Assembly: GCA_009914755.4 (NCBI GenBank)
Contig: CP086569.2
Location: 20,928,001-20,992,000 of the forward strand
Direction: 5' to 3'
Origin: the human T2T-CHM13v2.0 reference genome, Homo sapiens
Length of the DNA: 64,000 nt
Positions 9,251 to 64,000 of the stretch are shown piece after piece. How positions within the stretch are numbered: position 1 is the first letter of the stretch; each line of letters opens with the position of its first letter. The notes under the pieces are model-generated. The model was not told the origin of the DNA and did no database searches. It saw only the letters and a list, made by a program, of their open reading frames with translations. The position numbers were made by a program, and so were the translations under genes.

Positions 9251-9467
9251 ATCATCAGTTTAATGTTACTCTAAGACCCTCATTATTTTGGGACAACTTC
9301 ATCTAGTAAATAAATATACATTACATACTTACTACAGTTTATTGAGCACTCTCAAACCAAAATTCACCTAAGCTTTTTAAACTTGCTCTTCTTTCTCAAG
9401 GAAAACTTCTTCCAAAAGGAAATTATATTTATTTCATTTCATTTCATTTATTATCTTTTTGGTTTTA

Positions 9468-9478
9468 AAGAAATAGCT
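9468..9478. repeat. Upstream target-site duplication of the full-length L1 (AAGAAATAGCT)
   Basis: The same 11-mer (12 if a leading A is counted) recurs at 15621-15631, immediately after the L1 polyA tail. Upstream context TTTT|AAAG fits the L1 endonuclease TTTT/AA preference. Confidence 0.85.
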
Positions 9479-11531: not shown

Positions 11532-11595
11532 AAGACCATCGAGATTAGGAAGAAACTGCATCAACTCAAGAGCAAAATAACCAGCTAACATCATA

Positions 11596-15394
<3,799 letters not shown>

Positions 15395-27428: not shown

Positions 27429-28960
27429 GTTGTACCTGAAAGTGATGGGGAGAATGGAGCCAAGTTGGAAAACACTCTTCAGGATATTATCCAGGAGAAC
27501 TTCCCCAACCCAGCAAGGCAGGCCAACATTCAAATTCAGGAAATACAGAGAACACCACAAAGATACTCCTTGAGAAGAGCAACTCCAAGACAAATAATCG
27601 TCAGATTCACCAAGGTTGAAATGCAGGAAAAAGTGTTAAAGGCAGCCACAAAGAAATGTTGGGCTACCCACAAAGAGAAGCTCAACAAACTAATAGCAGA
27701 TGTTTCTGTAGAAACACTTCAAGCCAGAAGACAGTAGGCGCCAATATTCAACATTCTTAAAGAAAATAATTTTCAAGCCAAAATTTCATATGTAGCCAAA
27801 CTAAACTTCAAAAGTGAAGGAGAAATAAAATCCTTTACAGGCAAGCAAATGCAGAGAGATTTTGTCACCACCAGGCCTCTCTTACAAGAGCTCCTCAAGG
27901 AAGCACTAAACATGGAAAGGAACAACTGGTACCAGCCACTGCAAAAACATACCAAATTGTAAAGAACATCAACATTATGAAGAAACTGCATCAACTAACG
28001 GGCAAAACAACCAGCTAACATAATAATGACAGGAATAAATTCACATTTAACAATATTAATCTTAAATGTAAATGAGCTAAATGCCCCAATTAAAAGACAC
28101 AGAATGGCAAATTGGATAGAGTCAAGACCCATCAGTGTGCTGTATTCAGGAGACCCATGTCTCGTGCAAAGATACACACGGCCTCAAAATAAAAGGATGG
28201 AAGAATATTTACCAAGCAAATGGAAACCAAAAAAACAAGAGCTGCAATCCTGATCACTGATAAATCAGACTTTAAACCAACAAAGATCAAAAGAGACATA
28301 GAAGGCTATTACATAACGGTAAAGGGATCAATCCAGTAAGGGAGCTAACTATCCTAAATATATGTGCACACAATACAGGAGCACCCAGATTCATAAAGCA
28401 AGTTCTTAGAGAGCTACAGAGACTTGGCCTTCACACAATAATAGTGGGAGATTTTAACATCCTATTGTCAATATTAGACAGATAAATGAGGCAGAAAATT
28501 AGCAAGGATATTCAGGACATGAACTCAGCTCTGGACCAAGCAGACCTAATAGATTTCTACACAACTCTCCACCCCAAATCAATAGAATATACATTCTCCT
28601 CAGGAGTTCCTCGGACTTATTCTAAAATTGACCACATAATTGGAAGTAAAACACTCCTCAGCCAATACAAAAGAATGGAAATCATAACACTCTCTCAGAC
28701 CACAGTGCAATCAAATTGGAACTCACAATTAAGAAACTCACTCAAAACCGCACAACTACGTGGAAACTGAACAGGCTGCTTCTGAATGACTACTGGGAAT
28801 ACAATGAAATGAAGGCAGAAATATTTTCCTTGAAACCAATAAGAACAAAGGCACAATGTGTCATAATCTCTGGGACACATATAAGGCACTTTTTAGAGGA
28901 AAATTTATAGTACTAAATGCCCATAAGAGAAAGGAGGAAAGATCTAAAATTGACACCCTT
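27428..28960 (+). mobile_element. L1 ORF1 C-terminal half, inter-ORF spacer and ORF2 N-terminal ~300 codons. It is joined directly downstream of the ORF2-middle segment, a permuted order
   Basis: GTACCTGAAAGTGATGGGGAGAATGGAGCCAAGTTGGAAAACACTCTTCAGGATATTATCCAGGAGAACTTCCCCAACC (ORF1 ..VPESDGENG..LENTLQDIIQENFPN..). ORF2 starts at 28026, MTGINSHLTILILNVNELNAPIKRHRMANWIESRP... The segment ends ...GCCCATAAGAGAAAGGAGGAAAGATCTAAAATTGACACCCT at ~28960, and non-L1 sequence follows. Confidence 0.8.
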
Positions 28961-32494: not shown

Positions 32495-32876
<382 letters not shown>

Positions 32877-32957: not shown

Positions 32958-33218
32958 ATTTTATTTATTTATTATACTGTAAGTTCTGGGATACATGTGC
33001 AGAATGTGCAGGTTTGTTACAGAGATATATGCTTGTTTGCTGCACCTGTCAGTTTTTCATCTACATTAGGTATTTCTCCTAATGCTATTCCCTGTTAGGT
33101 CCCCACCCTCCAACAGTCTCCAGTGTTTGATGTTCCCCTCCCTATGTCCATGTATTCTCATTTTACAACTCCCACCTATGAGTGAGAAATTGCAGTGTTT
33201 GTGTGTTTGGAACTTATT
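32958..33218 (-). mobile_element. Short L1 3'-end fragment (tail, 3'UTR and last ORF2 codons) on the minus strand, directly abutting the satellite array
   Basis: TTTTATTTATTTATTATACTGTAAGTTCTGGGATACATGTGCAGAATGTGCAGGTTTGTTACAGAGATATATGC...TTAGGTATTTCTCCTAATGCTATTCCCTGTTAGGTCCCCACCCTCCAACAGTCTCCAGTGTTTGATGTTCCCCTCCCTATGTCCATGTATTCTCATTTTACAACTCCCACCTATGAGTGAGAAATTGCAGTGTTTGTGTGTTTGGAAC is the reverse complement of the L1 ORF2 end and 3'UTR. Confidence 0.75.
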
Positions 33219-33227
33219 CCTTCCAGT

Positions 33228-33345
33228 GGGTTTGTGGTCTCGCTCACTGCAAAAATGAAGCTGTAGACCGTTTCGGTGTGTGTTACAACTCTTAAAGGTG
33301 GTGTGTCTGGAGTTTGCTACTTCACATGAGCTCATGGTCTTGCTT
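33228..33345. repeat. Edge monomer of the array. It is the most divergent unit and the most LTR12-like (ancestral-looking)
   Basis: GTTTGTGGTCTCGCTCACTGCAAAAATGAAGCTGTAGACCGTTTCGGTGTGTGTTACAACTCTTAAAGGTGGTGTGTCTGGAGTTTGCTACTTCACATGAGCTCATGGTCTTGCTTACTTC. It keeps GTGGTCTCGCT and TCTTAAAGGTGGTGTGTCTGGAGTTTG, which are closer to the LTR12 start than to the homogenised array consensus. Units at 33345-33800 are intermediate. Confidence 0.6.
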
Positions 33346-34949
33346 ACTTCAAGAATGAAGCTGCAGACATTTACGGTGAGTGTTACAGCATTTAAAGCTG
33401 TTATGTCCAGAGTTTGTTCCTTAAGATGTGTCCAGAATTTCTTCCTTCAGGCAGGTTCATGGTCCTGCTTAATTCAAGAACGAAGCTGCAGACATTTACG
33501 GTGAGTGTTACAGCACTTAAAGGTGTTATGAACACAGATTGTTCCTTCAGATGTGTCCAGAGTTTCTTCCATCTGGCAGGTTCATGGCCTTGCTTACTTC
33601 AAGAATGAAGCTGCAGACCTTTACTGTGAGTGTTACAACACTTAAAGGTGTTATGTCCAGAGTTTGTTCCTTCAGATGTGTTCAGAGTTTCTTCCTTCTG
33701 GCAGGATCATGGTCTTGCTCACTTCAAGAATAAAACTGTAGAACTTAGTGGTGAGCGTTACAGCACTTAAAGGTGTTACGTCCAGAGTTTGTTCATTCAC
33801 ATGTGTCCAGAGTTTCTTCCTTCTGGCAGGTTCATGGTCTTGCTCACTTCAAGAATGAAGCTGCAGACCTTAGTGGTGAGTGTTACAGCACTTAATGGTG
33901 TTATGTTCAGAGATTGTTCATTCAGATGTGTCCGTAGTTTCTTCCTTCTGGCAGGTTCATGGTCTTGCTCACTTCAAGAATGAAGCTGCAAAGCTAAGTG
34001 TTGAGTGTTACAGCACTTAAAGGTGTTATGTCCAGAGTTTCTTCCTTCAGATGTGTCCAGAGTTTCTTCCTTCTGGCTGGCTCAAGGTCCTGCTTAATTC
34101 AAGAATGAAGCTGCAGACCTTAGTGGTGAGTGTTACAGCACTTAAAGGTGTTATGTCCAGAGTTTCTTCCTTCAGATGTGTCCAGAGTTTCCTCCTTCTT
34201 GCAGGTTCATGGTCTTGCTTACTTCAAGAATGAAGCTGCAGACATTAGTGGTGACTGTTACAGCACTTAAAGGTGTTATGTCCAGAGTTTGTTCCTTCAG
34301 ATGTGTCCAGAGTTTCTTCCTTATGGCAGGTTCATGGTCTTGCTCACTTCAAGAAAGAAGCTGAAGACCTTTACGGTGAGTGTTACAGCACCTAAAGGTG
34401 TTATGTCCAGAGTTTCTTCCTTCAGATGTGCCCAGAGTTTCTTCCTTCTGGCAGGTTCATGGACTTGCTCACTTCAAGAATGAAGCTGCAAACCTTTACG
34501 GTGAGTGTTACAAAACTTAAAGGTGTTATGTCCAGAGATTTTTCCTTCAGATGTGTTCAGAGTTTCTTCCTTCTGGCAGGTTCATGGTCTTGCTCACTTC
34601 AAGAATGAAGCTGCAGACCTTTACGGTGAGTGTTACAGCACCTAAAGGTGTTATGTCCAGAGCTTGTTCCTTCAGATGTGCCCAGAGTTTCTTCCTTCTG
34701 GAAGGTTAATGGACTTGCTCACTTCAAGAATGAAGCTGCAGACCTTAGTGGTGAGTGTTACAGCACTTAAAGGTGTTATGTCCAGAGATTGTTACTTCAG
34801 ATGTGTCCGGACTTTCTTCCTTCTGGCAGGTTCATGGTCTTTCTCACTTCAAGAATGAAGCTGCAGACCTTAGTGGTGAGTGTTACAGCATTTAAAGGTG
34901 TTATGTCCAGAGTTTGTTCCTTCAGATGTGTCCAGACTTTCTTCCTTCT

Positions 34950-37620
34950 GGCAGGTTCATGGTCTTCTCACTTCAAGAATGAAGCTGCAGACATTTACGG
35001 TGAGTGTTACAGCACCTAAAGTTGTTATGTCCAGAGTTTGTTCCTTCAGATGTGCCCAGAGATTCTTGCTTCTGGTAGATTCATGGTCTTGCTCACTTCA
35101 AGAATGAAACTGCAAACCTTTACGGTGAGTGTTACAACACTTAAAGGTGTTATGTCCAGAGTTTGTTCCTTCAGATGTGTTCAGAGTTTCTTCCTTCTGG
35201 CAGGTTCATGATCTTGCTCACTTCAAGAATGAAGCTGCAGAAGTTAGTTGTGAGTGTTACAGCGCTTAAAGGTGTTATGTCCAGAGGTTCTTCATTCAGA
35301 TGTGTCCGGAGTTTCTTCCGTCTGGCAGGTTCATGGTCTTGCTCACTTCAAGAATGAAGCTGCAGACCTTAGTAGTGAGTGTTACAGCACTTAAAGGTGT
35401 TATGTCCAGAGTTTGTTCATTTAGATGTGTCAAGAGTTTCTTCCTCCTGGCAGGTTCATGGTCTTGCTCACTTCAAGAATGAAGCTGCAGACCTTTACGG
35501 TGAGTGTTACAGCACTTAAAGGTGTTAGGTCTAGAGTTTGTTCCTTCAGATGTGTCCAGATATTCTTCCTTCTGGCAGGTTCATGGTCTTGCTCACTTCA
35601 AGAATGAAGCTGCAGACCTTAGTGGTGAGTCCCACAGCACTTAAAGGTGTTATGTCCAGAGTTTGTTCATTCAGATGTGTCCGGAGTTTCTTCCTTGTGG
35701 CAGGTTCATGGTCTTGTTCTCTTCAAGAATGAAGCTGCAGAAATTAGTGGTGAGTGTTACAGCACTTATAGGTGTTATGTCCAGAGTTTATTCCTTCAGA
35801 TGTGTCCAGAGTTTCCTCCTTCTGGCAGGTTCATGGTCTTGCTGACTTCAAGAATAAAGCTGCAGACCTGTACGGTGAGTGTTACAGCACTTAAAGGTGT
35901 TATGTCCATAGTTTGTTCCTTCAGATGTGTCCAGAGTCAATTCCTTCTGGCAGGCTCATGGTCCTGCTCACTTGAAGAATGAAGCTGCAGACCTCACTGG
36001 TGAGTGTTACAGCACTTAAAGTTGTTATGTCCTGAGTTTGTTCATGCAGATGTGACCGGAGTTTCTTTCTTCTGGCAGGTTCATGGTCTTGCTCACCTCA
36101 AGAATGAAGCTGCAGACCTTAGTGGTGAGTGTTACAGCACTTAAAGGTGTTATGTAGAGAGTTTGTTACTTCATATGTGTCCAGAGTTTCTTCATTCTGG
36201 CAGATTCATGGTCTTGCTCACTTCAATAATGAAGCTGCATACCTTTACGGTGAGTGTTACAGCACTTAAAGGTGTTAGGTCCAGAGTTTGTTCCTTCAGA
36301 TGTGCCCAGAGATTCTTGCTTCTGGTAGATTCATGGTCTTGCTCACTTCAAGAATGAAACTGTAAACCTTTACGGTGAGTGTTACAACACTTAAAGGTGT
36401 TATGTCCAGAGTTTGTTCCTTCAGATGTGTTCAGAGTTTCTTCCTTCTGGCAGGTTCATCATCTTGCTCACTTCAAGAATGAAGCTGCAGAAGTTAGTTG
36501 TGAGTGTTACAGCGCTTAAAGGTGTTATGTCCAGAGGTTCTTCATTCAGATGTGTCCGGAGTTTCTTCCGTCTGGCAGGTTCATGGTCTTGCTCACTTCA
36601 AGAACGAAGCTGCAGAACTTAGTGGTGAGTGTTACAGCACTTAAAGGTGTTATGTCCAGAGTTTGTTCATTTAGATGTGTCCAGAGTTTCTTCCTTCTGG
36701 CAGGTTCATGGTCTTGCTCACTTCAAGAATGAAGCTGCAGACCTTTACGGTGAGTGTTACAGCACTTAAAGGTGTTAGGTCTAGAGTTTGTTCCTTCAGA
36801 TGTGTCCAGATATTCTTCCTTCTGGCAGGTTCATGGTCTTACTCACTTCAAGAATGAAGCTGCAGACCTTAGTGGTGAGTCTCACAGCACTTAAAGGTGT
36901 TATGTCCAGAGTTTGTTCATTCAGATGTGTCCGGAGTTTCTTCCTTGTGGCAGGTTCATGGTCTTGTTCTCTTCAAGAATGAAGCTGCAGAAATTAGTGG
37001 TGAGTGTTACAGCACTTATAGGTGTTATGTCCAGAGTTTGTTCCTTCAGATGTGTCCAGAGTTTCCTCCTTCTGGCAGGTTCATGGTCTTGCTGACTTCA
37101 AGAATAAAGCTGCAGACCTGTACGGTGAGTGTTACAGCACTTAAAGGTGTTATGTCCATAGTTTGTTCCTTCAGATGTGTCCAGAGTTTCTTCCTTCTGG
37201 CAGGTTCATGGTCTTGCTCACTTCAAGAATGAAGCTGCAGACATTTACGGTGAGTGTTACAGCACCTAAAGGTGTTATGTCCAGAGTTTGTTCCTTCAGA
37301 TGTGCCCAGAGTTTCTTGCTTCTGGCAGATTCATGGTCTTGCTCACTTCAAGAATGAAGCTGCAAACCTTTACGGTGAGTGTTTCAACACTTAAAGGTGT
37401 TATGTCCAGAGTTTTTTCCTTCAGATGTGTACAGAGTTTCTTCCTTCTGGCAGGTTCATGATCTTGCTCACTTCAAGAATGAAGCTGCAGAAGTTAGTTG
37501 TGAGTGTTACAGCGCTGAAAGGTGTTATGTTCAGAGGTTCTTCATTCAGATGTGTCCGGAGTTTCTTCCGTCTGGCAGATTCATGGTCTTGCTCACTTCA
37601 AGAATGAAGCTGCAGACCTT
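34950..37620. repeat. 1,250-bp higher-order repeat (10 monomers), about 2 full copies plus a shortened third at +1,000 bp
   Basis: Track peptides repeat at exactly +1250: 35163/36413 (MFLQMCSEFLPSGRF(M/I)ILLTSRMKLQKLVVSVTALKGVMSRGSSFRCVRSFFRLAGSWSCSLQE), and the pairs 35300/36550, 35425/36675, 35538/36788 and 35647/36897 (111 aa each). The next copy is at +1000: 37413, 37550, 37675, 37788 and 37897. Confidence 0.75.
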
Positions 37621-40600
37621 AGTGGTGAGTGTTACAGCACTTAAAGGTGTTATGTCCAGAGTTTGTTCATTTAGATGTGTCCAGAGTTTCTTCCTTCTGG
37701 CAGGTTCATGGTCTTGCTCACTTCAAGAATGAAGCTGCAGACCTTTACGGTGAGTGTTACAGCACTTAAAGGTGTTAGGTCTAGTGTTTGTTCCTTCAGA
37801 TGTTTCCAGATATTCTTCCTTCTGGCAGGTTCATGGTCTTGCTCACTTCAAGAATGAAGCCGCAGACCTTAGTGGTGAGTCTCACAGCACTGAAAAGGTG
37901 TTATGTCCAGAGTTTGTTCATTCAGATGTGTCCGGAGTTTCTTCCTTCTGGCAGGTTTATGGTCTTGTTCTCTTCAAGAATGAAGCTGCAGAAATTAGTG
38001 GTGAGTGTTACAGCACTTATAGGTGTTATGTCCAGAGTTTGTTCCTTCAGATGTGTCCAGAGTTTCCTCCTTCTGGCAGGTTCATGGTCTTGCTGACTTC
38101 AAGAATAAAGCTGCAGACCTGTACGGTGAGTGTTACAGCACTTAAAGGTGTTATGTCCATAGTTTGTTCCTTCAGATGTGTCCAGAGTTAATTCCTTCTG
38201 GCAGGCTCATGGTCCTGCTCACTTGAAGAATGAAGCTGCAGACCTCACTGGTGAGTGTTACCGCACTTAAAGTTGTTATGTCCTGAGTTTGTTCATGCAG
38301 ATGTGACCGGAGTTTCTTTCTTCTGGCAGGTTCATGGTCTTGCTCACCTCAAGAATGAAGCTGCAGACCTTAGTGGTGAGTGTTACAGCACTTAAAGGTG
38401 TTATGTAGAGAGTTTGTTACTTCATATGTGTCCAGAGTTTCTTCATTCTGGCAGATTCATGGTCTTGCTCACTTCAATAATGAAGCTGCATACCTTTACG
38501 GTGAGTGTTACAGCACTTAAAGGTGTTATGTCTAGAGTTTGTTCCTTCAGATGTGTCCAGAGTTTCTTCTTTCTGGCAGGTTCATGGTCGTGCTCACTTC
38601 AAGAATGAAACTGCAGACCTTTACGGTGACTGTTACAACACTTAAAGGTGTTAGGTCCAGAGTTTGTTACTTCAGATGTGTCTAGAGTTTCTTCCTTTTG
38701 GCAGGTTCATGGTCTTGCTCACTTCAAGAATGAAGCTGCAGACCTTTACAGTGAGTGTTACAACACGTAAAGATGTTAGTTCCAGAATTTGTTCCTTCAG
38801 ATGTGTTCAGAGTTTCTTCCTTCTGGCAGGTGCATGGTCTTGCTCACCTCAGGAATGAAGCTGCAGACCTCAGTGGTGAGTGTTACAGCACGTAAAGGTG
38901 TTATGTCCAGAGATTGTTAATTCAGATATGTACAGAGTTTCTTCCTTCTGGCAGGTTCATTGTCTTGCTCACTTCAAGAATGAAGCTGCAGACCTTTACG
39001 GTGACTGTTACAGCCCTGAAAGGTGTTAGGTCCAGAGTTTGTTCCTTCAGATGTGTCCAGAGTTTCTTCGGTCTGGCAGGTTCATTGTCTTGCTCACTTC
39101 AAGAATGAAGCTGCAGACCTTTACGGTGAGTGTTACAGCATATAAAGGTGTTATGTCCACAGCTTGTTCCTTCATATGTGTCCAGAGTTTCTTCCTTCTG
39201 GCAGGTTCATGGTCTTGCTCACTTAAAGAATGAAGCTGCAGACGTTAGTGGTTAGTGTTGCAGCACTTAAAGGTGTTATGTCCAGAGATTGTTCATTCAG
39301 ATGTGTCCGTAGTTTCTTCCTTCTGGCAGGTTCATGGTCTTGCTCACTTCAAGAATGAAGGTTCAGACATTAGTGGTGAGTGTTACAGCACTTAAAAGTG
39401 TTATGTCCAGTGATTGTTCATTCAGATGTGTCCGTAGTTTCTTCCTTCTGGCAGGTTCAAGGCCTTGCTCACTTAAAGAATGAAGCTGCAGACCTTAGTG
39501 GAGAGTGTTTCAGCACTTAAAGGTGTTATGTCCAGAGTTTGTTCCTTCAGATGTGTCCAGAGTTTCTTCCTTCTGGCAGGTTCATGGTCTTGTTCACTTC
39601 AAGAATGAAGCTGCTGACCTTTACGGTGAGTGTTACAGCACTTAAAGGTGTTATGTCTAGAGTTTGTTCCTTCAGATGTGTCCAGAGTTTCTTCCTTCTG
39701 GAAGGTTCATGGTCTTGCTCACTTCAAGAATGAAGCTGCAGACCTTAGTGGTGAGTGTTACAGCACTTAAAGGTGTTATGTCCAGAGATCGTTACTTCAG
39801 AGGTGTCAGGAGTTTCTTCCTTCTGGCAGGTTCATGGTCTTGCTCAATTCAAGAATGAAGCTGCAGACCTTAGTGGTGAGTGTTACAGCACTTAAAGGTG
39901 TTATGTCCAGAGTTTGTTCCTTCAGATGTGTTCAGAGTTTCTTCCTTCTGGCAGGCTCATGGTCCTGCTTAATTCAAGAATGATGCTGCAGACATTTACG
40001 GTGAGTGTTACAGCACTTAAAGGTGTTATGTCCAGGGTTTGTTCCTTCAGATGTGTCCAGAGTTTCCTCCTTCTGGCAGGTTCATGGTCTTGCTTATTTC
40101 AAGAATGAAGCTGCAGACCTTAGTGGTGAGTGTTACAACACTTAAAGGTGTTATGTCCAGAGTTTGTTCCTTCAGATGTGTCCAGAGTTTCTTCCTTCTG
40201 GCAGGTTCATGGTCTTGCTCACTTCAAGAATGAAGCTGCACACATTTACGGTGAGCGTTACAGCACCTAAAGGTGTTATGTCCAGAGTTTGTTCCTTCAG
40301 ATGTGCCCAGAGTTTCTTGCTTCTGGCAGATTCATGGTCTTGCTCACTTCAAGAATGAAGCTGCAAACCTTTACGGTGAGTGTTTCAACACTTAAAGGTG
40401 TTATGTCCAGAGTTTTTTCCTTCAGATGTGTACAGAGTTTCTTCCTTCTGGCAGGTTCATGATCTTGCTCACTTCAAGAATGAAGCTGCAGAAGTTAGTT
40501 GTGAGTGTTACAGCGCTGAAAGGTGTTATGTTCAGAGGTTCTTCATTCAGATGTGTCCGGAGTTTCTTCCGTCTGGCAGATTCATGGTCTTGCTGACTTC

Positions 40601-43480
40601 AAAAATGAAGTTGCAGACCTTAGTGGTGAGTGTTACAGCACTTAAAGGTGTTATGTCCAGAGTTTGTTCATTTAGATGTGTCCAGAGTTTCTTCCTTCTG
40701 GCAGGTTCATGGTCTTGCTCACTTCAAGAATGAAGCTGCAGACCTTTACGGTGAGTGTTACAGCACTTAAAGGTGTTAGGTCTAGAGTTTGTTCCTTCAG
40801 ATGTGTCCAGATATTCTTCCTTCTGGCAGGTTCATGGTCTTGCTCACTTCAAGAATGAAGCCGCAGACCTTAGTGGTGAGTCTCACAGCACTGAAAAGGT
40901 GTTATGTCCAGAGTTTGTTCATTCAGATGTGTCCGGAGTTTCTTCCTTCTGGCAGGTTCATGGTCTTGTTCTCTTCAAGAATGAAGCTGCAGAAATTAGT
41001 GGTGAGTGTTACAGCACTTATAGGTGTTATGTCCAGAGTTTGTTCCTTCAGATGTGTCCAGAGTTTCCTCCTTCTGGCAGGTTCATGGTCTTGCTGACTT
41101 CAAGAATAAAGCTGCAGACCTGTACGGTGAGTGTTACAGCACTTAAAGGTGTTATGTCCATAGTTTGTTCCTTCAGATGTGTCCAGAGTTAATTCCTTCT
41201 GGCAGGCTCATGGTCCTGCTCACTTGAAGAATGAAGCTGCAGACCTCACTGGTGAGTGTTACAGCACTTAAAGTTGTTATGTCCTGAGTTTGTTCATGCA
41301 GATGTGACCGGAGTTTCTTTCTTCTGGCAGGTTCATGGTCTTGCTCACCTCAAGAATGAAGCTGCAGACCTTAGTGGTGAGTGTTACAGCACTTAAAGGT
41401 GTTATGTACAGAGTTTGTTACTTCATATGTGTCCAGAGTTTCTTCATTCTGGCAGATTCATGGTCTTGCTCACTTCAATAATGAAGCTGCATACCTTTAC
41501 GGTGAGTGTTACAGCACTTAAAGGTGTTATGTCTAGAGTTTGTTCCTTCAGATGTGTCCAGAGTTTCTTCCTTCTGGCAGGTTCATGGTCGTGCTCACTT
41601 CAAGAATGAAACTGCAGACCTTTACGGTGAGTGTTACAACACTTAAAGGTGTTAGGTCCAGAGTTTGTTTCTTCAGATGTGTCCAGAGTTTCTTCCTTCT
41701 GGCAGGTTCATGGTCTTGCTCACTTCAAGAATGAAGCTGCAGACCTTTACGGTGAGTGTTACAACACGTAAAGGTGTTAGTTCCAGAATTTGTTCCTTCA
41801 GATGTGTTCAGAGTTTCTTCCTTCTGGCAGGTTCATGGTCTTGCTCACCTCAGGAATGAAGCTGCAGACCTCAGTGGTGAGTGTTACAGCACGTAAAGGT
41901 GTTATGTCCAGAGATTGTTAATTCAGATATGTACAGAGTTTCTTCCTTCTGGCAGGTTCATTGTCTTTCTCACTTCAAGAATGAAGCTGCAGACCTTTAC
42001 GGTGAGTGTTACAGCCCTGAAAGGTGTTATGTCCAGAGTTTGTTCCTTCAGATGTGTCCAGAGTTTATTCGGTCTGGCAGGTTCATTGTCTTGCTCACTT
42101 CAAGAATGAAGCTGCAGAACTTAACGGTGAGTGTTACAGCATATAAATGTGTTATGTCCACAGTTTGTTCCTTCATATGTGTCCAGAGTTTCTTCCTTCT
42201 GGCAGGTTCATGGTGTTGCTCACTTAAAGAATGAAGCTGCAGACGTTAGTGGTTAGTGTTGCAGCACTTAAAGGTGTTATGTTCAGAGATTGTTCATTCA
42301 GATGTGTCCGTAGTTTCTTCCTTCTGGCAGGTTCATGGTCTTGCTCACTTCAAGAATGAAGGTTCAGACCTTAGTGGTGAGTGTTACAGCACTTAAAAGT
42401 GTTATGTCCAGTGATTGTTCATTCAGATGTGTCCGTAGTTTCTTCCTTCTGGCAGGTACAAGGCCTTGCTCACTTAAAGAATGAAGCTGCAGACCTTAGT
42501 GGAGAGTGTTTCAGCACTTAAAGGTGTTATCTCCAGAGTTTGTTCCTTCAGATGTGTCCAGAGTTTCTTCCTTCTGGCAGGTTCATGGTCTTGCTCACTT
42601 CAAGAATGAAGCTGCAGACCTTTACCGTGAGTGTTACAGCACTTAAAGGTGTTATGTCTAGAGTTTGTTCCTTCAGATGTGTCCAGAGTTTCTTCCTTCT
42701 GGAAGGTTCATGGTCTTGCTCACTTCAAGAATGAAGCTGCAGACCTTAGTGGTGAGTGTTACAGCACTTAAAAGTGTTATGTCCAGAGATTGTTACTTCA
42801 GATGTGTCAGGAGTTTCTTCCTTCTGGCAGGTTCATGGTCTTGCTTACTTCAAGAATGAAGCTGCAGACCTTAGTGGTGAGTGTTACAACACTTAAAGGT
42901 GTTATGTCCAGAGTTTGTTCCTTCAGATGTGTCCAGAGTTTCTTCCTTCTGGCAGGTTCATGGTCTTGCTCACTTCAAGAATGAAGCTGCATACATTTAC
43001 GGTGAGTGTTACAGCACTTAAAGGTGTTATGTCCAGAGTTTGTTCCTTCAGATGTGCCCAGAGTTTCTTGCTTCTGGCAGATACATGGTCTTGCTCACTT
43101 CAAGAATGAAGCTGCAAACCTTTACGGTGAGTGTTACAACACTTAAAGTTGTTATGTCCAGAGTTTTTTCCTTCAGATGTGTACAGAGTTTCTTCCTTCC
43201 GGCAGGTTCATGATCTTGCTCACTTCAAGAATGAAGCTGCAGAAGTTAGTTGTGAGTGTTACAGCGCTGAAAGGTGTTATGTCCAGAGGTTGTTCATTCA
43301 GATGTGTCCGGAGTTTCTTCCGTCTGGCAGATTCATCGTCTTGCTCACTTCAAGAATGAAGCTGCAGACCGTAGTGGTGAGTGCTACAGCACTTAAAGGT
43401 GTTATGTCCAGAGTTTGTTCATTTAGATGTGTCCAGAGTTTCTTCCTTCTGGCAGGTTCATGGTCTTGCTGACTTCAAGA
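37380..43480. repeat. About 3,001-bp higher-order repeat (24 monomers): two near-identical copies, then a third with deletions (offsets +2751 and +2375)
   Basis: Identical or near-identical peptides at +3001: 37379/40380 (117 aa), 37754/40755 (145 aa), 37788/40789, and the pairs 38414/41415, 38664/41665, 38914/41915, 39539/42540 and 39664/42665. The third copy is 43131..43472 (+2751) and 43801 (+2386 versus 41415). Confidence 0.75.
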
Positions 43481-46199
43481 ATAAAGCTGCAGACCTGTAC
43501 GTTGAGAGTTACAGCACTTAAAGGTGTTATGTCCATAGTTTGTTCCTTCTGATGTGTCCAGAGTTAATTCCTTCTGGCAGGCTCATGGTCCTGCTCACTT
43601 GAAGAATGAAGCTGCAGACCTTACTGGTGAGTGTTACAGCACTTAAAGTGTTATGTCCTGAGTTTGTTCATGCAGATGTGACCGGAGTTTCTTTCTTCTG
43701 GCAGCTTCATGGTCTTGCTCACCTCAAGAATGAAGCTGCAGACCTTAGTGGTGAGTGTTACAGCACTTAAAGGTGTTATGTACAGAGTTCGTTACTTAAT
43801 ATGTGTCCAGAGTTTCTTCATTCTGGCAGATTCATGGTCTTGCTCACTTCAAGAATGAAGCTGCATACCTTTATGGTGAGTGTTACAGCACTTAAAGGTG
43901 TTATGTCTAGAGTTTGTTCCTTCAGATGTGTGCAGAGTTTCTTCCTTCTGGCAGGTTCATGGTCGTGCTCACTTCAAGAATGAAGCTGCAGACCTTTACG
44001 GTGAGTGTTACAGCACTTAACGGTGTTAGGTCCAGAGTTTGTTTCTTCAGATGTGTCCAGAGTTTCTTCCTTCTGGCAGGTTCATGGTCTTGCTCACTTC
44101 AAGAATGAAGCTGCAGACCTTTACGGTGAGTGTTACAACACTTAAAGGTGTTAGTTCCAGAATTTGTTCCTTCATATGTCTACAGAGTTTCTTCCTTCTG
44201 GCAGGTTCATGGTCTTGTTTACATCAGGAGTGAAGCTGCAGACCTCAGTGGTGAGTGCTACAGCACTTAAAGGTGTTATGTCCAGAGATTGTTATTTCAG
44301 ATATGTCCAGAGTTTCTTGCTTCCTGCAGGTTCATGGTCTTGCTCACTTCAAGAATGAAGCTGCAGACCTTTACGGTGAGTGTTACAGCACTGAAAGGTG
44401 TTATGTCCAGTGTTTGTTCCTTCAGATGTGTCCAGAGTTTCTTCCGTTTGGCAGGTTCATGGTCTTGCTCACTTCAAGAATGAAGCTGCAGACCTTTACG
44501 GAGGGTGTTACAGCACATAAAGGTGTTATGTCCACAGTTTGTTCCTTCATATGTGTGCAGAGTTTCTTCCTTCTGGCAGGTTCATGGTCTTGCTCACTTA
44601 AAGAATGAAGCTGCAGACCTTAGTGGTGAGTGTTGCAGCACTTAAAGGTGTTATGTCCAGAGATTGTTCATTCAGATGTGTCCGTAGTTTCTTCCTTCTG
44701 GCAGGTTCATGGTCTTGCTCACTTCAAGAATGTAGCTGCAGACCTCAGTGGTGAGTGTTACAGCACTTAAAAGTGTTATGTCCAGTGATTGTTCATTCAG
44801 ATATGTCCGTAGTTTCTTCCTTCTGGCAGGTTCAAGGTCTTGCTCACTTCAAGGATGAAGCTGCAGACCTTAGTTGAGAGTGTTTCAGCACTTAAAGTTG
44901 TTATGTCCAGAGTTTGTTCCTTCAGATGTGTCCAGAGTTTCTTCCTTCTGGCAGGTTCATGGTCTTGCTCACTTCAAGAGTGAAGCTGCAGACCTTAGTG
45001 GTGAGTGTTACAGCACTTAAAGGTGTTATGTCCAGAGATTGTTACTTCAAATGTGTCAGGAGTTTCTTCCTTCTGGCAGGTTCATGGCCTTGCTCACTTC
45101 AAGAATGAAGCTGCAGACATTAGTGGTGAGTGTTACAGCCCTTAAAGGTGTTATGTCCAGAGTTTGTTCCTTCAGATGTGTCCAGAGTTTCTTCCTTCTG
45201 GCAGGTTCATGGTCTTGCTCACTTCAAGAATGAATCTGCGGACCTTTACTGTGAGTGTTACAGCACGTAAAGGAGTTATATCCAGAGTTTGTTCCTTCAG
45301 ATGTATCCAGAGTTTCTTCCTTCTGGCAGGCTCATGGTCCTGCTTAATTCAAGAATGAAGCTGCAGACATTTACGGTGAGTGTTACAGCACTTAGAGGTG
45401 TTATTTCCAGAGTTTGTTCCTTCAGATGTGTCCAGAGTTTCTTCTTTCTGGCAAGTCCATGGTCTTGCTCTCTTCAGGAATGAAGCTGCAGACGTTTACG
45501 GTGAGTGTTGCAGCACCTAAAGGTGTTATGTCCAGAGATTGTTCCTTCAGATGTGCCCAGAGTTTCTTCCTTCTGGCAGATTCATGGTCTTGCTCACTTG
45601 AAGAATGAAGCTGCAAACCTTTACGGTGAGTGTTACAACACTTAAAGGTGTTATGTCCAGTGTTTGTTCCTTCAGATGTGTCCAGAGTTTCTTCCTTCTT
45701 GCAGGTTCATGGTCTTGTCCACTTCAAGAATGAAACTGAAGACCCTTACGGTGAGTGTTACAGCACTTAAAGGTGTTATGTCCAGAGATTGTTCTTTCAG
45801 TTGTGTCCACAGTTTCTTCCTTTTGGCAGGTTCATGGTCTTGCTCACTTCAAGAATGAAGCTGCAGACCTTGGTGGTGAGTTTTACAGCACTTACAGGTT
45901 TTATGTCCCGAGTTTGTTCCATCAGATGTGTCCAGAGTTTCTTCCTTTTGGCAGCTTCATGGTCTTGCTCACTTCAAGAATGAAGCTGCAGACCTCAGTG
46001 GTGAGTGTTACAGCACTTAAGTGTGTTATGTAAAGAGTTTGTTCCTTCAGATGTGTCCAAAGTTTCTTCAATCTGGCAGGTTCATGGTCTTGCTCACTTC
46101 AAGAGTGAACCTGCAGAATTCAGTGTTGAGTGTTACAGCACTTAAAGGTGTTATGTCTAGAGTTTGTTCCTTCAGATGTGTCCAGAGTTTCTTCCTTCT

Positions 46200-49100
46200 G
46201 GCAGGTTCATGGTCTTGCTCACTTCAAGAAAGAATGAAGCTGCAGACCTTTACGGTGAGTGTTACAGCATATAAAGGTGTTATGTCCAGAGTTTTGTCCT
46301 TCAGATGTCTCCAGAATTTCTTCCTTCTGGCAGGTTCATGGTCTTGCTCACTTCAAGAATGAAGCTGCAGACCTTGGTGGTGAGTGTTACAGCACTTAAA
46401 TGTGTTATGTCCAGAGTTTGTTCCATCTGATGTGTACAGAGTTTCTTCCTTCTGGCAGGTTCATGGTCTTGCTCACTTCAAGAATGAAGCTGCAGACCTT
46501 AGTGGTGAGTGTTACAGCACTTAAAGGTGTTATGTCCAGAGTTTTTTCCTTGTGATGTGTCCAGAGTTTCTTCCTTCTGGCAGGTTCATGGTCTTGCTCA
46601 CTTCAAGAATGAAGCTGCAGACCTTTACGTTGAGTGTTAGAGCACTTAATGTTGTCATGTCCAGAGTTTATTCCTTCAGATGTGTCCAGAGTTTCTTCAT
46701 TCTGGCAGGTTCATGGTCTTGTTCTCTTCAAGAATGAAGCCGCAGACCTTAGTGGTGAGCGTTACAGCACTTAAAGGTTTTATGTCCAGAGTTTGTTCCA
46801 TCAAATGTGTCTAGAGTTTCTTCCTTCTGGGAGGTTCATGGTCTTGCTCACTTCAAGAATGAAGCTGCAGACCTTAGTGGTGAGTGTTACAAGACTTAAA
46901 GGTGTTATGTCCAGAGTTTGTTCCTTGTGATGTTTGCAGAGTTTCTTCATTCAGGCAGGTTCATGGTCTTGCTCACTTCAAGAATTATGCTGCAGACCTT
47001 TACGGTGAATTTTACAGCACTTAAAGGTGTTATGTCCAGAGTTTTTTCCTTTAGTTGTGTCCAGAGTTTCTTTCTTCTGGCAGTTTCATGTTCTTGCTTA
47101 CTTCAAGAATGAAGCTCCAGACCTTTACGGTGAGTTTTACAGCACTTAAAGGTGTTATGTCCAGAGTTTTTTCCTTCAGTTGTGTCCAGAGTTTCTTTCT
47201 TCTGGTAGTTTCATGTTCTTGCTCACTTCAAGAATGAAGCTCCAGACCTTTACGGTGAGTGTTACAGCACTTAAAGCTATTATGTCCAGAGTTTTTACCT
47301 TCAGATGTGTACAGGCTTTCTTCCTTCTGGCAGGTTCATGGTCTTGCTAGATTCAAGAATGAACCTCCATTCCTTTACGGTGAGTGTTACAGCACTTAAA
47401 GGTGTTATGTCCAGAGTTTGTTCCTTCAGATGTGTCCAGAGTTTCTTCCTTCTGGCAAGTTCATGGTCTTGCTCACTTCAAGAATGAAGCTGCAGACCTT
47501 GTTGGTGTGTGTTACAGCACTTACACTTTTTATGTCTCGAGTTTGTTCCATCAGATGTGTCCAGAATTTCTTCCTTTTGGCAGGTTCATGGTCTTGCTCA
47601 CTTCAAGAATGAAGCTGCAGACCTTAGTGGTGAGTGTTACAGCACTTAAAGGTGTTATGTAAAGAGTTTGTTCCATGTGATGTGCGCAGAGTTTCTTCCT
47701 TCTGGCAGGTTCATGGTGTTGCTCACTTGAAGAATGATGCTGCAGACATTTACGGTGAGTGTTACAGCACTTAAAGGTGTTATATCCAGAATTTGTTGCT
47801 TCAGATGTGTCCAGAGTTTCTTTCTTCTGGCAGTTACATGGTCTTGCTTACTTCCAGAATGAAGCTACAGACCTTTACGGTGAGTTTTACAGCACTTAAA
47901 AGTGTTATGTCCAGAGTTTGTTCCTTCAGTTGTGTCCAGAGTTTCTTCCTTCTGGCAGGTTCATGGTCTTGCTCACTTCAAGAATGAAACTACAGACCTT
48001 TACGATGAGTGTTACAGCACTTACAGGTGTTATGTCCCGAGTTTTTTCCATCAGATGTGTCCAGAGTTTATTCCATTTGGCAGGTTCATGGTCTTGCTCA
48101 CTTCAAGAATGAAGCTGCAGACCTTAGTGGTGAGTGTTACAGCACTTAAAGGTGTTATGTCCAGAGGTTGCTCCTTGTGATGTGTGCAGAGTTTGTTTCT
48201 TCTGGCAGGTTCATGGTCTTGCTCACTTCAAGAGTGAAGCTGCAGGCCTTTACGGTGAGTGTTATAGCACTTAAAGGTGTTATGCCCAGAGTTTGTTCCT
48301 TCAGATGTGTTCAGAGTTTCTTCCTTCTAGCAGGTTCATGGTCTTGCTCACTTCAAGAATGAAGCTGCAGACCTTAGCGGTGAATGTTACAGCACTTAAA
48401 GGTGTTATGTCCAGAGTTTTTTCTTTCAGATTTGTCCGGAGTTTCTTCCATCTGGCAGGTTCATGGTCTTGCTCACTTCAAGAGTGAAGCTGCAGAATTT
48501 AGTGGTGAGTGGTACAGCACTTAAAGGTGTTATGTCCAGAGTTTCTTCCTTCAGATTTGTCCAGAGTTTCTTCCTTCTGGCAGGTTCATGGTCTTGCTCA
48601 CTTCAAGAGTGAAGCTGCAGAATTTAGTGGTGAGTGTTACAGCACTTAAAGGTGTTATGTCCAGAGTTTGTTCCTTCAGATGTGTCCAGATATTCTTCCT
48701 TCTTGCAGGGTCATGGTCTTGCTCACTTCAAGAAAGAATGAAGATGCAGACCGTTACGGTGAGTGTTACAGCATATAAAGGTGTTATGGACGGAGTTTGG
48801 TCTTTCAGATGTATCCAGAGTTTCTTCTTCGGGCAGGTTCATGGTCTTGCTCAATTCAAGAATAAAGCTGTAGACCTTGGTGGTGAGTGTTACAGCACTT
48901 AAAGGTGTTATGTCCAGAGTTTGTTCCATCAGATGTGTCCACAGTTTCCTTCTTCTCTCAGGTTCCTGGCCTTGCTCACTTCAAGAATGAATCTCCAGAC
49001 TTTCATGGTGAGGTTTACAGCACTTAAAAGTGTTATGTCCAGAGTTTGTTCCTTCAGTTTTGTCCAGAGTTTCTTCCTTCTGGCAGGTTCATGGTCTTGT

Positions 49101-52100
49101 TCAATTCAATAATGAAGCTGCACACCTTGGTGGTGGGTGTTACAGCACTTAAAGGTGTTACGTCCAGAGTTTGTTCCATCAGATGTGTATAGACTTTCTT
49201 CCTTTTGGCAGATTCATGGTATTGCTTACTTCAAGAATGAAGCTGCAGACATTTACGGTGAGTGTTACAGCACTTAAAGTTGTTATATCCAGAGTTTGTT
49301 CCATAAGATGTGTCTAGAGTTTCTTCCTTCTGGCATGTTCATGGTCTTGCTCACTTCAGGATAGAATGAAGCTGCAGACATTTACGGTGAGTGTTACAGC
49401 ATATAAAGTGTTATGTCCAGAGTTTGTTCCTTCAGATGTGTCCAGAGTTTCTTCTGGCAGGTTCATGGTCTTGCTCACTTCAAGAATGAAGGTCCAGTCC
49501 TTTACGGTGAGTGTTACAGCACTTAAAGGTGTTATGTCCAGAGTTTGTTCCTTCAGATGTGGCCAGAGTTTCTTCCTTCTGTCAGGTTCATGGTCTTGCT
49601 CACTTCAAGAATGAAACTGCAGACCATTACCGTGAGTGTTACAGCACTTAAATGTGTTATGTCCAGAGTTTTTTCCTTCAGATTTGTCCAGTTTCTTCCT
49701 TCTGGCAGGTTCATGGTCTTGCTCACTTCAAGAATGAAACTGTCGACCTTTACCGTGAGTGTTACAGCACTGAAAGATGTTATGTCCAGAGTTTGTTCCT
49801 TCAGATATTTCCAGAGTTTCTTCCATCTGGCAGGTTCATGGTCTTGATCACTTCAAGAATGAAGCAGCAGACCTTATTTGTGAGGGTTACAGCTCTTAAA
49901 GGTGTTATGTCCAGAGTTTTTTCCTTCAGTTGTGTCCAGAGTTTCTTCCTTCTGGCAGGTTCATGGTCTTGCTCACTTCAAGAATGAAGCTGCAGACATT
50001 TACTGTGAGTGTTACAGCACTTAAATTTGTTATATCCAGAGTTTGTTCCTTCAGATGTGTCTAGAGTTTCTTCCTTCTGGCATGTTCACGGTCTTGCTCA
50101 CTTCAAGAAAGAATGAAGCTGCAGAAATTTACGGTGAGTGTTACAGCATATAAAGTGTTATGTCCAGAGTTTGTTCCTTCAGATGTGTCCAGAGTTTCTT
50201 CCTTCTGGCAGGTTCATGGTCTTGCTCACTTCAAGAATGAAGCTGCAGACCTAGGTGGTGAGTGTTATAGCACTTAAAGATGTTATGTCCAGAGTTTGTT
50301 CATTCAGATGTGTCCAGAATTTCTTTCTTCTGGCAGGTTCATGGTCTTGCGGACTTCAGTAATGAAGCTCAAGTCCTTTACGGTGAGTGTTACGGCACTT
50401 AAAGGTGTTATGTCCAGAGTTTCTTCCATCAGATTTGTCCAGAGTTTCTTCCTTCTGGCGGGTTCATGGTCTTGCTCACTTCAAGAATGAAGCTGCAGTC
50501 CTTAGTGGTGAGTGTTACAGCACTTAAAGGTGTTATGTAAAGAGTTTGTTCCTTCAGATATGTCCAAAGTTTCTTCAATCTGGCAGGTTCATGGTCTTAC
50601 TCACTTCAAGAGTGAAGATGCAGAATTTAGTGGTGAGTGTTACAGCACTTAAAAGTGTTATGTCCAGCGTTTGTTACTACAGATGTGTCCAGATATTCTT
50701 CCTTCTGGCAGGTTCATGGTCTTGCTCACTTCAAGAAAGAATGAAGCTGCAGACCTTTACGGTGAGTGCTACAGCATAGAAAGGTGTTAGGTCTAGAGTT
50801 TTTTCCTTCAGATGTGTCCAGAGTTTCTTCCTTCTGGCAGGTTCATGGTCTTGCTCAATTCAAGAATGAAGCTGCAGACCTTAGTTTTGAGTGTTACAGC
50901 CCTTGAAAGTGTTATGTCCAGAGTTTGTTCCTTCAGATGTGTCTAGAGTTTCTTCCTTCTGGCAGGTTCATGGTCTTGCTCACTTCAAGAATGAAGCTGC
51001 AGACCTTAGGGGTGAGTGTTACAGTACTTAAAGGTGTTATGTGCAGAGTTTTTTTCCTTCAGATGTGTCCAGAGTTTCTTCCAACTTGCATTTTCATGGT
51101 CTTGCTCACTTCAAGAGTGAAGCTGCAAAATTTAGTGGTGATTGTTACAGCACTTAAAGGTGTTATGTCCAGAGTTTGTTCCTTCAGATGTGTCGAGATA
51201 TTCTTTCTTCTGGTATGTTCATGGTCTGGCTCACTTTAAGAAAGAATGAAGCTGCAGACCTTTACGGTGAGTGTTACAGCATATAAAGGTGTTATGTCCA
51301 GAGTTTTGTCCTTCAGATGTCTCCAGAAATTCTTCCTTCGAGCAGGTTCATGGTCTTGCTCACTTCAAGAATGAAGCTGCAGACTTTGGTGGTGAGTGTT
51401 ACAGCACTTAAATGTGTTATGTCCAGAGTTTGTTCCATCTGATGTGTACAGAGTTTCTTCCTTCTGGCAGGTTCATGGTCTTGCTCACTTCAAGAATGAA
51501 GCTGCAGACCCTAGTGGTGAGTGTTACAGCACTTAAAGGTGTTATGTCCAGAGTTTGTTCCTTGTGATGTGTCCAGAGTTTCTTCCTTCTGGCAGGTTCA
51601 TGGTCTTGCTCACTTCAAGAATGCAGCTGCAGACCTTTACGTTGAGTGTTAGAGCACTTAATGTTGTCATGTCCAGAGTTTGTTCCTTCAGATGTGTCCA
51701 GAGTTTCTTCATTCTGGCAGGTTCATGGTCTTGTTCTCTTCAAGAATGAAGCCGCAGACCTTAGTGGTGAGCGTTACAGCACTTAAAGGTTTTATGTCCA
51801 GAGATTGTTCCATCAAATGTGTCTAGAGTTTCTTCCTTCTGGGAGGTTCATGGTCTTGCTCACTTCAAGAATGATGCTGCAGACCTTAGTGGTGAGTGTT
51901 ACAACACTTAAAGGTGTTATGTCCAGAGTTTGTTCCTTGTGATGTTTGCAGAGTTTCTTCATTCTGGCAGGTTCATGGTCTTGCTCACTTCAAGAATGAT
52001 GCTGCAGACCTTTACGGTGAGTTTTACAGCACTTAAAGGTGTTATGTCCAGAGATTTTTCCTTCAGTTGTGTCCAGAGTTTCCTTCTTCTGGCAGTTTCA

Positions 52101-63950: not shown

Positions 63951-64000
63951 ATGTCCAGAGTTTGTTCCTTCAGATGTGTCCAGATATTCTTCCTTCTTGC

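What the first reader, a model, noticed from the sequence alone, without database searches (positions are those of the whole stretch)
34950..43480. Nested higher-order repeats in the proximal array: a 1.25-kb 10-mer inside a 3.0-kb 24-mer, with near-identical copies
Exact +1250-bp and +3001-bp recurrences of long identical peptide strings in the six-frame track (listed in the features) show that whole blocks of 10 and 24 monomers were duplicated very recently. The 117- and 145-aa ORFs at 37379 and 37754 recur identically at 40380 and 40755. The same marker unit (KLQKLVV...RGSSFRCVRSFFRLA) recurs at 35163, 36413, 37413, 40414 and 43165, with spacings of 1250, 1000, 3001 and 2751 bp. This pattern indicates unequal crossing-over with deletions of 2 and about 2-5 monomers. 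Monomers within an HOR differ by about 5-10%, while HOR copies are above 99% identical.
Basis: seen in the sequence. Interest (0 to 1): 0.55.

Follow-up and report, generated by a model that had tools for sequence, protein, structure and literature searches.

The report
Block duplications inside a 125-bp satellite

Summary
Window 33235-64000 is one head-to-tail array of 246 monomers of 125 bp, with a median monomer-to-monomer identity of 88%. It abuts Alu and L1 sequence, so the genome is a primate.

The off-diagonals at +3001 and +1250 bp are real and far beyond chance. The longest same-lag run of monomer pairs at 96% identity or more is 22, against a maximum of 3 in 200 shuffles.

Monomer typing shows one 24-monomer unit (A-X) in tandem copies of 10, 8, 24, 22 and about 20 monomers, with older relics on both sides. 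Every junction is a single in-register switch. Two junction monomers are clean hybrids (K/A and H/X), the signature of unequal homologous exchange.

- Copies are 95.7-98.6% identical, not above 99%.
- Monomers within a unit differ by a median of 11%, not 5-10%.
- The two ORFs recur with 1 and 2 amino-acid changes, not identically.
- Each of the two periods occurs only once.
- The 10-monomer unit lies upstream of the 24-monomer copies, not inside them.

A divergence of 1.4-2% means these duplications are not recent on the timescale of human Y lineages.

The array fits published descriptions of DYZ19 (125 bp, LTR12B-derived, with internal tandem duplications). The phenomenon is known and of low interest.

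The parts
33235..64000 (+). Head-to-tail array of 246 monomers of about 125 bp. It runs off the window end. The first unit (33235-33332) is truncated or about 100 bp.
   Evidence: TRF. The nhmmer decomposition gave 246 hits, all on the + strand and none upstream of 33235. 214 of 246 monomers are exactly 125 bp.
34208..34957 (+). Older relic of the same unit (types X, A, B, A/T, U, V/X/D), 95-96% identical to the reference monomers.
   Evidence: Best-match typing.
34958..36206 (+). Copy c1: monomers A-J (10 monomers).
   Evidence: Each monomer's best match is the same-letter monomer of c3, at 96.0-100%. Lag-18 and lag-42 diagonals.
36207..36331 (+). K/A hybrid monomer, the crossover product that creates the 1250-bp period. 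The switch lies between monomer columns 60 and 76.
   Evidence: Informative sites are K-like on the 5' side and A-like on the 3' side, with one clean switch.
36207..37206 (+). Copy c2: monomers A'-H (8 monomers).
   Evidence: Typing at 94.4-99.2%. Lag-10 diagonal to c1 at 98.4%. c1/c2 are 98.0% identical over A-H.
37082..37206 (+). H/X hybrid monomer, the crossover product that deleted I-W (16 monomers) from c2. The switch lies between columns 78 and 108.
37207..40207 (+). Copy c3: the full 24-monomer unit A-X (3001 bp). Monomer F (37832-37957) is 126 bp, which explains the extra base.
40208..42958 (+). Copy c4: A-U then X (22 monomers, 2751 bp). V and W are deleted.
   Evidence: Typing at 96.8-100%. 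37 mismatches in 2626 bp against c3. The junction switch lies between column 110 of U and column 13 of X.
42959..45457 (+). Copy c5: A-D, H-S, U and three less clear monomers (20 monomers). E-G and T are deleted. It is more diverged, at 91-98%.
45458..45707 (+). Relic start of a further copy (A and B, each at 95.2%).
32960..33205 (+). L1-like fragment directly abutting the array start, with an Alu at about 32700-32870. This is the proximal boundary of the array.
   Evidence: Sequence read directly. The Alu and L1 assignment is from my knowledge of the consensus sequences. L1 ORF1/ORF2-like ORFs lie further upstream.

Best explanation
The region is the edge-proximal part of a 125-bp tandem satellite in a primate genome, most likely DYZ19 of the human Y long arm, an array derived from an internally repetitive part of an LTR12B retroviral LTR. 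Within it, a block of 24 diverged monomers (A-X, 3001 bp) was amplified as a unit and its copies were then shortened. Both steps came from homologous exchange between misaligned, in-register monomers: unequal sister-chromatid or intrachromatid recombination, since a male-specific Y region has no homologue.

Shown:
- The copies are colinear (units of 10, 8, 24, 22 and about 20 monomers).
- Hybrid monomers sit at the junctions.
- The copies group as ((c1,c2),(c5,(c3,c4))).
- Differences between copies are mostly private point substitutions that accumulated after duplication.

Inferred:
- A K-by-A exchange created the 10-monomer duplication (c1/c2).
- An H-by-X exchange deleted 16 monomers from c2.
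- A V-by-X (or U-by-W) exchange deleted 2 monomers from c4.
- A D-by-G (or E-by-H) exchange deleted 3 monomers from c5.
- The youngest event is c3/c4 in the middle and the older copies and relics lie outward, a layered local expansion.
- The sequence has no coding role. The ORFs exist only because the unit is poor in stop codons.
For: Array and background:
- 125-bp array, all units on the + strand.
- Median background monomer identity is 88%.

Block structure:
- A 22-monomer diagonal at lag 24, plus diagonals at lags 10, 8, 18, 42, 22, 46, 19 and 43, tie the copies together.
- Monomer typing gives ABCDEFGHIJ / A'BCDEFGH / A-X / A-U,X / ABCD,H-S,U....
- Shuffle control: observed run 22, against a maximum of 3.

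Junctions and history:
- Hybrid monomers and single-switch junctions.
- 13 informative sites group (c1,c2) against (c3,c4). Seven sites group c5 with c3 and c4.
- In 34 c3/c4 differences, one state is nearly always the array consensus and matches the outgroup copy, while the other is present in 6% or less of other monomers. This points to point mutation after duplication.

Identity of the array:
- DYZ19 is a 125-bp head-to-tail array of 63.5-428 kb, a fragment of an LTR, with central and distal homogenisation (10.1101/2022.12.01.518658).
- Its monomer is derived from LTR12B, and tandem duplications are visible in the T2T-Y self dot-plot (10.1101/2022.12.01.518724).
- LTR12B itself contains 3 tandem copies of an approximately 125-bp repeat (PMC2588610).
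- The flank contains Alu and L1.

No coding signal:
- No Pfam family reaches its cut-off for the ORFs.
- 125 is not a multiple of 3, so successive monomers are read in different frames.
Against: - Identity with DYZ19 and Y linkage was not tested at sequence level.
- A single haplotype cannot distinguish duplication by exchange from long in-register gene conversion.
- Divergence between c3 and c4 is uneven: 0.8% over A-K against 2.1% over L-U, binomial p = 0.008. One clean duplication followed by clock-like mutation is therefore too simple.
- The shared identity around the crossover intervals is short (about 15-30 bp between flanking mismatches), which also fits replication-based template switching.
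Confidence: 0.82

Rival explanations
1. The same block structure was produced by replication errors (slippage, fork stalling with template switching, or break-induced replication on the same chromatid) rather than by reciprocal unequal exchange.
For: The crossover intervals are short stretches of shared identity (columns 60-76, 78-108 and about 110-13) between monomers that are only about 92-96% alike. This is below what classical homologous recombination normally prefers. The unusual substitution spectrum could fit error-prone repair synthesis.
Against: All junctions are exactly in register, with no inserted or lost bases. Both models predict this, so the sequence alone cannot separate them.
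Confidence: 0.12
2. The blocks became similar through long-tract gene conversion between out-of-register parts of a pre-existing array, without a change in copy number.
For: Identity along c3/c4 is heterogeneous: A-K 0.8% against L-U 2.1%, p = 0.008. A later conversion over part of the block would produce this. HIJ of c1 is 99.5% identical to c3 and c4, although ABCD of c1 is only 96.4-97.4%. This also suggests patchy exchange.
Against: - Five colinear copies with hybrid junction monomers and missing internal monomers are deletion or duplication products. Conversion does not delete monomers.
- The derived states that distinguish the copies are mostly private, not copied from other monomers.
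Confidence: 0.04
3. The near-identical copies are an assembly artefact (false duplication of a collapsed repeat).
For: Satellite arrays are prone to misassembly. GRCh38's DYZ19 is reported as incomplete and rearranged relative to T2T-Y.
Against: - False duplications are expected to be essentially identical. Here the copies differ at 37 of 2626 sites and by whole-monomer deletions.
- The copies form a consistent tree.
Confidence: 0.02

Closest known systems
DYZ19, the 125-bp LTR12B-derived satellite array of human Yq11.222 (Skaletsky 2003; Warburton 2008, PMC2588610; Rhie 2023; Hallast 2023)
   Same: - 125-bp unit in head-to-tail orientation.
- The array is at least 30.8 kb and continues beyond the window.
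- The flank is ordinary interspersed-repeat-rich primate sequence.
- Internal tandem duplications are visible in a self dot-plot.
[quoted passage not shown]
- From memory, the monomer reads like a CpG-decayed copy of the LTR12 repeat region.
   Different: No difference was demonstrated. The papers I could read describe the array at 1-kb-window resolution. They do not give a monomer-level unit (24 monomers), hybrid junction monomers, or the order of events for the proximal edge.
Alpha-satellite higher-order repeats (for example DYZ3 34-mer/36-mer) and their layered expansions
   Same: - Diverged monomers (here a median of 11%) are arranged in a fixed order.
- That order is repeated as a unit at much higher identity (96-98.6%).
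- Variant units arise by in-register monomer deletions.
- The youngest copies are central and older ones lie outward.
   Different: - There are only 5-7 copies, and no two have the same length.
- Copy identity is lower than in active centromeric HOR arrays.
- There is no array-wide period. Neighbouring parts of the same array use other block sizes (34, 40, 49 and 53 monomers).
- The monomer is unrelated to the 171-bp alphoid unit, and the locus is not centromeric.
Smith (1976) unequal-crossover model of tandem-repeat evolution
   Same: It predicts exactly this outcome: spontaneous emergence of multi-monomer periodicities, in-register hybrid units at exchange points, and turnover by duplication and deletion.
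   Different: It is a model, not a family. On a non-recombining Y region the exchange must be between sister chromatids or within one chromatid.

Membership tests
DYZ19 (human Y 125-bp satellite) | Tandem unit of 125 bp in head-to-tail orientation | tested here: met
   TRF period 125 with 244.9 copies. 246 nhmmer hits, all on the + strand, and 214 monomers are exactly 125 bp.
DYZ19 (human Y 125-bp satellite) | Monomer derived from the internally repeated part of LTR12B (about 85% similar) | not testable with these tools
   No Repbase or Dfam library is available. The match to the LTR12 repeat region is from memory only. The first unit at 33235 keeps CpGs and lacks the 25-bp internal duplication, which is consistent with an LTR-like progenitor edge.
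DYZ19 (human Y 125-bp satellite) | Located in Yq11.222 and flanked by X-degenerate sequence | not testable with these tools
   No human or ape genome is searchable. The flank is Alu and L1, so primate. Exact-ORF look-up and collection scans found no copy of the array.
DYZ19 (human Y 125-bp satellite) | Large array (63.5-428 kb) | tested here: inconclusive
   The window holds 30.8 kb and the array runs off the end. This is compatible with the range but not measured.
Higher-order repeat (HOR) organisation | Monomers within the unit are much more diverged than the corresponding monomers between units | tested here: met
   Median 11% within the unit, against 1.4-4.3% between copies.
Higher-order repeat (HOR) organisation | Conserved monomer order between adjacent units | tested here: met
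   Monomer strings are colinear, apart from in-register deletions.
Higher-order repeat (HOR) organisation | A constant period repeated many times across the array | tested here: not met
   Unit lengths are 10, 8, 24, 22 and about 20 monomers. Lags 24 and 10 each occur once, and other parts of the array show lags of 34, 40, 49 and 53. TRF with a maximum period of 2000 reports only 125 bp.

The most novel reading that the evidence does not exclude
The proximal edge of this array may be an old, frozen record of intrachromosomal exchange on a non-recombining chromosome. Its crossover points are resolved to 15-30 bp. Differences between its paralogous copies show an atypical substitution spectrum: a transition fraction of 0.44, with an excess of C>A and C>G. 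That spectrum would point to break-repair-associated mutagenesis inside Y heterochromatin. If this holds across many Y assemblies, the array could calibrate exchange and mutation processes in satellites.
Probability: 0.1. Interest if true: 0.45.

Novelty: already known. Interest (0 to 1): 0.15.

Why it matters
It matters little beyond description. The array type, its origin from an LTR, its size polymorphism and its internal tandem duplications are all published. Multi-monomer periodicities with hybrid junction units are the textbook outcome of unequal exchange.

Three points are useful:
- The correction that these blocks are old (1.4-4% diverged). They should therefore be shared by living human Y lineages rather than vary between individuals.
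- The junction-level reconstruction, which gives concrete markers (the K/A and H/X hybrid monomers) for comparing assemblies.
- The side observation of a low transition-to-transversion ratio among young paralog differences.

Tried and rejected
- TRF with maximum period 2000 on 33-47 kb reports only the 125-bp period. It is not suited to low-copy block repeats, so I used offset histograms and monomer typing instead.
- The exact-protein look-up of the 145-aa ORF found nothing on record.
- Scans of metagenome and prokaryote-genome collections with a marker specific to monomer C found nothing.
- The most conserved 28-mer found one metagenome contig, L001, carrying only about 2 units between L1-like sequence. 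This is a dispersed copy, not the array. It found nothing in genome contigs. No independent copy of the region could therefore be compared.
- A full-text search for monomer sequence strings returned no paper.
- Paar et al. 2011 on Y-chromosome HORs is not held. The Hallast supplement has no monomer-level description.
- Rfam found no family in the window.
- Pfam gave only a sub-threshold DUF3514 hit (17.5 bits against a cut-off of 25) for one ORF, so I rejected a coding interpretation.
- I tested gene conversion as the source of the c3/c4 differences and largely rejected it, because the derived states are private.
- I computed molecular-clock dates (5-9 Myr for c3/c4 and 13 Myr for c1/c2 at 0.76e-9 per site per year) but do not trust them as absolute ages. 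The same clock would date the 11-12% background divergence to about 75 Myr, which is implausible for an LTR12B-derived array. Only relative ages, and the conclusion that the events are older than the common ancestor of human Y chromosomes, are retained.
Full report
**What is there**

TRF finds a single array of 125-bp units from 33332 to the end of the window, with 244.9 copies and 87% matches. A profile built from 20 in-phase monomers cuts the window into 246 units, all on the + strand. They start at 33235 and none lies upstream. 214 of them are exactly 125 bp.

All-against-all alignment of monomers gives a median identity of 88%. Adjacent monomers average 87.6%, and fewer than 1% of pairs reach 96%.

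Immediately upstream lie an Alu-like element (about 32700-32870) and an L1-like fragment (32960-33205). I read these directly and recognised them from my knowledge of the consensus sequences. ORFs resembling L1 ORF1 and ORF2 lie at 10973-15394 and 27465-28770. The window is therefore primate DNA holding one boundary of a satellite array.

**Checking the observation**

In 34950-43480 the commonest self-offset of 20-mers is 3001 bp (2374 words, 43% of positions). Next is 1250 bp (1078 words, 14.8%). Both exceed the basic 125 bp (983 words, 11.7%).

Per-bin identity at +3001 is 96-100% from 37207 to 39957. Outside that stretch it falls to background levels of 84-92%. At +1250 it is 96-100% only from about 35082 to 35956. 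Exact runs reach 338 bp at +3001 and 157 bp at +1250, against 65 bp at +125.

The longest run of consecutive monomer pairs at 96% or more on one diagonal is 22. Permuting monomer order 200 times never gave more than 3. The off-diagonals are real.

The ORFs at 37379 (117 aa) and 37754 (145 aa) recur at 40380 and 40755, but with 1 and 2 amino-acid differences. The marker peptide recurs at spacings of 1250, 1000, 3001 and 2751 bp.

**Anatomy**

I named the 24 monomers of 37207-40207 A to X and typed every other monomer by its best match. This gives:

| Copy | Coordinates | Monomers | Content |
|---|---|---|---|
| c1 | 34958-36206 | 10 | A-J |
| c2 | 36207-37206 | 8 | A'-H |
| c3 | 37207-40207 | 24 | A-X; F is 126 bp, hence 3001 bp |
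| c4 | 40208-42958 | 22 | A-U then X; V and W missing |
| c5 | 42959-45457 | 20 | A-D, H-S, U plus three less clear monomers |

Relics at 95-96% identity lie on both sides. They are typed X, A, B, A/T, U, V/X at 34208-34957, and A, B at 45458-45707.

The 10-monomer unit is therefore the first ten monomers of the 24-monomer unit and sits upstream of it. There is no 1250-bp sub-period inside the 3-kb copies.

Identities between copies:
- c3/c4 are 98.6% identical over A-U (37 mismatches in 2626 bp).
- c1/c2 are 98.0% identical.
- c1 or c2 against c3 or c4 are 97.1-97.8% identical.
- c5 against c3 or c4 is 95.7-97.8% identical.

Monomers within the unit differ by a median of 11%, with 5th-95th percentiles of 6.4-15.9%.

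**Mechanism**

The junction monomers are informative.
- Monomer 36207-36331 matches K on its 5' side and A on its 3' side. The switch lies between columns 60 and 76.
- Monomer 37082-37206 matches H up to about column 78-108 and X after that.
- The U|X junction of c4 and the D|H junction of c5 each switch once, near a monomer boundary.

All junctions are in register, with no extra or missing bases. This is what exchange between misaligned homologous monomers produces.

My inferences from this:
- A K-by-A exchange gave the 10-monomer duplication.
- An H-by-X exchange removed 16 monomers from c2.
- Further exchanges removed V and W from c4, and E-G and T from c5.

Shared derived sites group (c1,c2) against (c3,c4) at 13 sites, and place c5 with c3 and c4 at 7 sites. 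The youngest event is therefore central and older ones lie outward.

In the c3/c4 differences, one state is almost always the array consensus and agrees with the outgroup copy. The other state is present in 6% or less of other monomers. The differences are therefore post-duplication point mutations rather than sequence imported by conversion.

Some later patchy exchange is likely. A-K differ by 0.8% and L-U by 2.1% (p = 0.008). HIJ of c1 is 99.5% identical to c3 and c4, while ABCD of c1 is 96.4-97.4%.

Whether the exchange was reciprocal sister-chromatid recombination or replication-based template switching cannot be decided from one sequence.

**Age**

The Y substitution rate has a 95% interval of 0.67-0.86e-9 per site per year, quoted. 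The point value of 0.76e-9 is from my knowledge. At that rate, two copies separated for the roughly 180,000 years spanned by living human Y lineages (abstract of 10.1101/2022.12.01.518658) would differ by about 0.03%. That is under one site in 2.6 kb. The observed count is 37.

Even a tenfold higher local rate leaves these duplications older than the common ancestor of human Y chromosomes. I do not trust the absolute clock dates. The same clock would put the background divergence at about 75 Myr.

The conclusion is that 'very recent' is not supported. The structure should be shared among men rather than polymorphic.

Truly recent events do exist further along the array. One is a perfect 499-bp, 4-monomer tandem duplication at 61758-62755. 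Another is 8-9 identical monomers at lag 34.

**Comparison with what is known**

Published descriptions fit closely.
- DYZ19 is a 125-bp head-to-tail array of 63.5-428 kb on Yq. It is a fragment of an LTR, with its central and distal parts homogenised by at least two rounds of expansion.
- Its monomer derives from an expanded portion of LTR12B, and the T2T-Y self dot-plot shows tandem duplications.
- LTR12B itself holds three tandem copies of an approximately 125-bp repeat. DYZ19 was the largest of the 16 large locus-specific tandem-repeat arrays reported in that survey of the human genome.

I could not test the assignment at sequence level, so membership rests on unit length, orientation, size and context. 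The organisation meets two of the three criteria for a higher-order repeat: divergence within the unit far above divergence between units, and conserved monomer order. It fails the third, a constant period repeated many times.

I found no paper describing this 24-monomer unit. It is nevertheless a descriptive detail of a known array behaving as the unequal-crossover model predicts.

**No coding role**

125 is not divisible by 3, so successive monomers are read in different frames. Pfam gives nothing above its cut-offs. Rfam finds nothing in the window.

**Verdict**

The unequal-crossover interpretation is supported and now has junction-level evidence. The claims of recency, above-99% identity and nesting are not supported. 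Novelty: already known. Interest is low.

Noticed in passing
window 33235-64000 (all near-identical monomer pairs): Differences between near-identical monomers have an unusually low transition share. It is 157 transitions to 199 transversions on a spanning tree of pairs at 96% or more, and 14 to 23 for c3/c4 alone. Polarised by the consensus, the classes are C>A 22%, C>G 14.5%, C>T 29.5%, T>A 11%, T>C 15% and T>G 8%. The consensus monomer has no CpG. The cause is unexplained. Candidates are conversion among monomers, polarisation error, or repair-associated mutagenesis.
   Followed up: partly
window 33235-33416: The first unit of the array is about 100 bp, and TRF reports period 100 here. It lacks the 25-bp internal duplication (GTTATGTCCAGAGTTTSTTCCTTCA, twice) that the later 125-bp monomers carry. 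It also keeps CpGs that later monomers have lost. It looks like the progenitor, LTR-like edge of the array.
   Followed up: no
window 48587-59747: A different block period of 34 monomers (4262-4263 bp) recurs serially: 48587-49463 to 52849-53729, 50715-51219 to 54981-55484 to 59244-59747, and 53855-55484 to 58117-59747. Identity reaches 100% over 8-9 monomers, so this block is younger than the one in the finding.
   Followed up: partly
window 61758-62755: A perfect tandem duplication of 4 monomers: 499 bp twice, 100% identical. It is the best candidate in the window for a truly recent and possibly polymorphic event, or for an assembly duplication.
   Followed up: no
window 55614-57237 and 62257-63880: A 13-monomer block repeated at a lag of 53 monomers (6643 bp) with 98.6% identity. 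Lags of 49, 40, 28 and 27 monomers also occur nearby. The distal half of the window is a patchwork of several block sizes.
   Followed up: no
window 46208 onward: Monomers of 128-129 bp appear only from 46208 onward. Mean identity to the array consensus drops from about 0.93-0.94 to about 0.915-0.925 at about 47 kb. This suggests two sub-domains of the array.
   Followed up: no
L001 155-400 (contig OOKJ01005318.1): A 1289-bp metagenome contig carries about 2 units of the same 125-bp repeat, flanked by L1-like and (CA)-rich sequence. It is a dispersed short copy of the repeat in contaminating primate DNA, not part of the array.
   Followed up: partly
window 9434-15394 and 27465-28770: L1-derived ORFs lie in the flank: ORF1-like at 10973-11263 and 27465-27737, and ORF2 endonuclease- and RT-like at 11596-15394. 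No other gene-like feature was noticed. The region 20-22 kb has a higher GC content (0.47) and was not examined.
   Followed up: no
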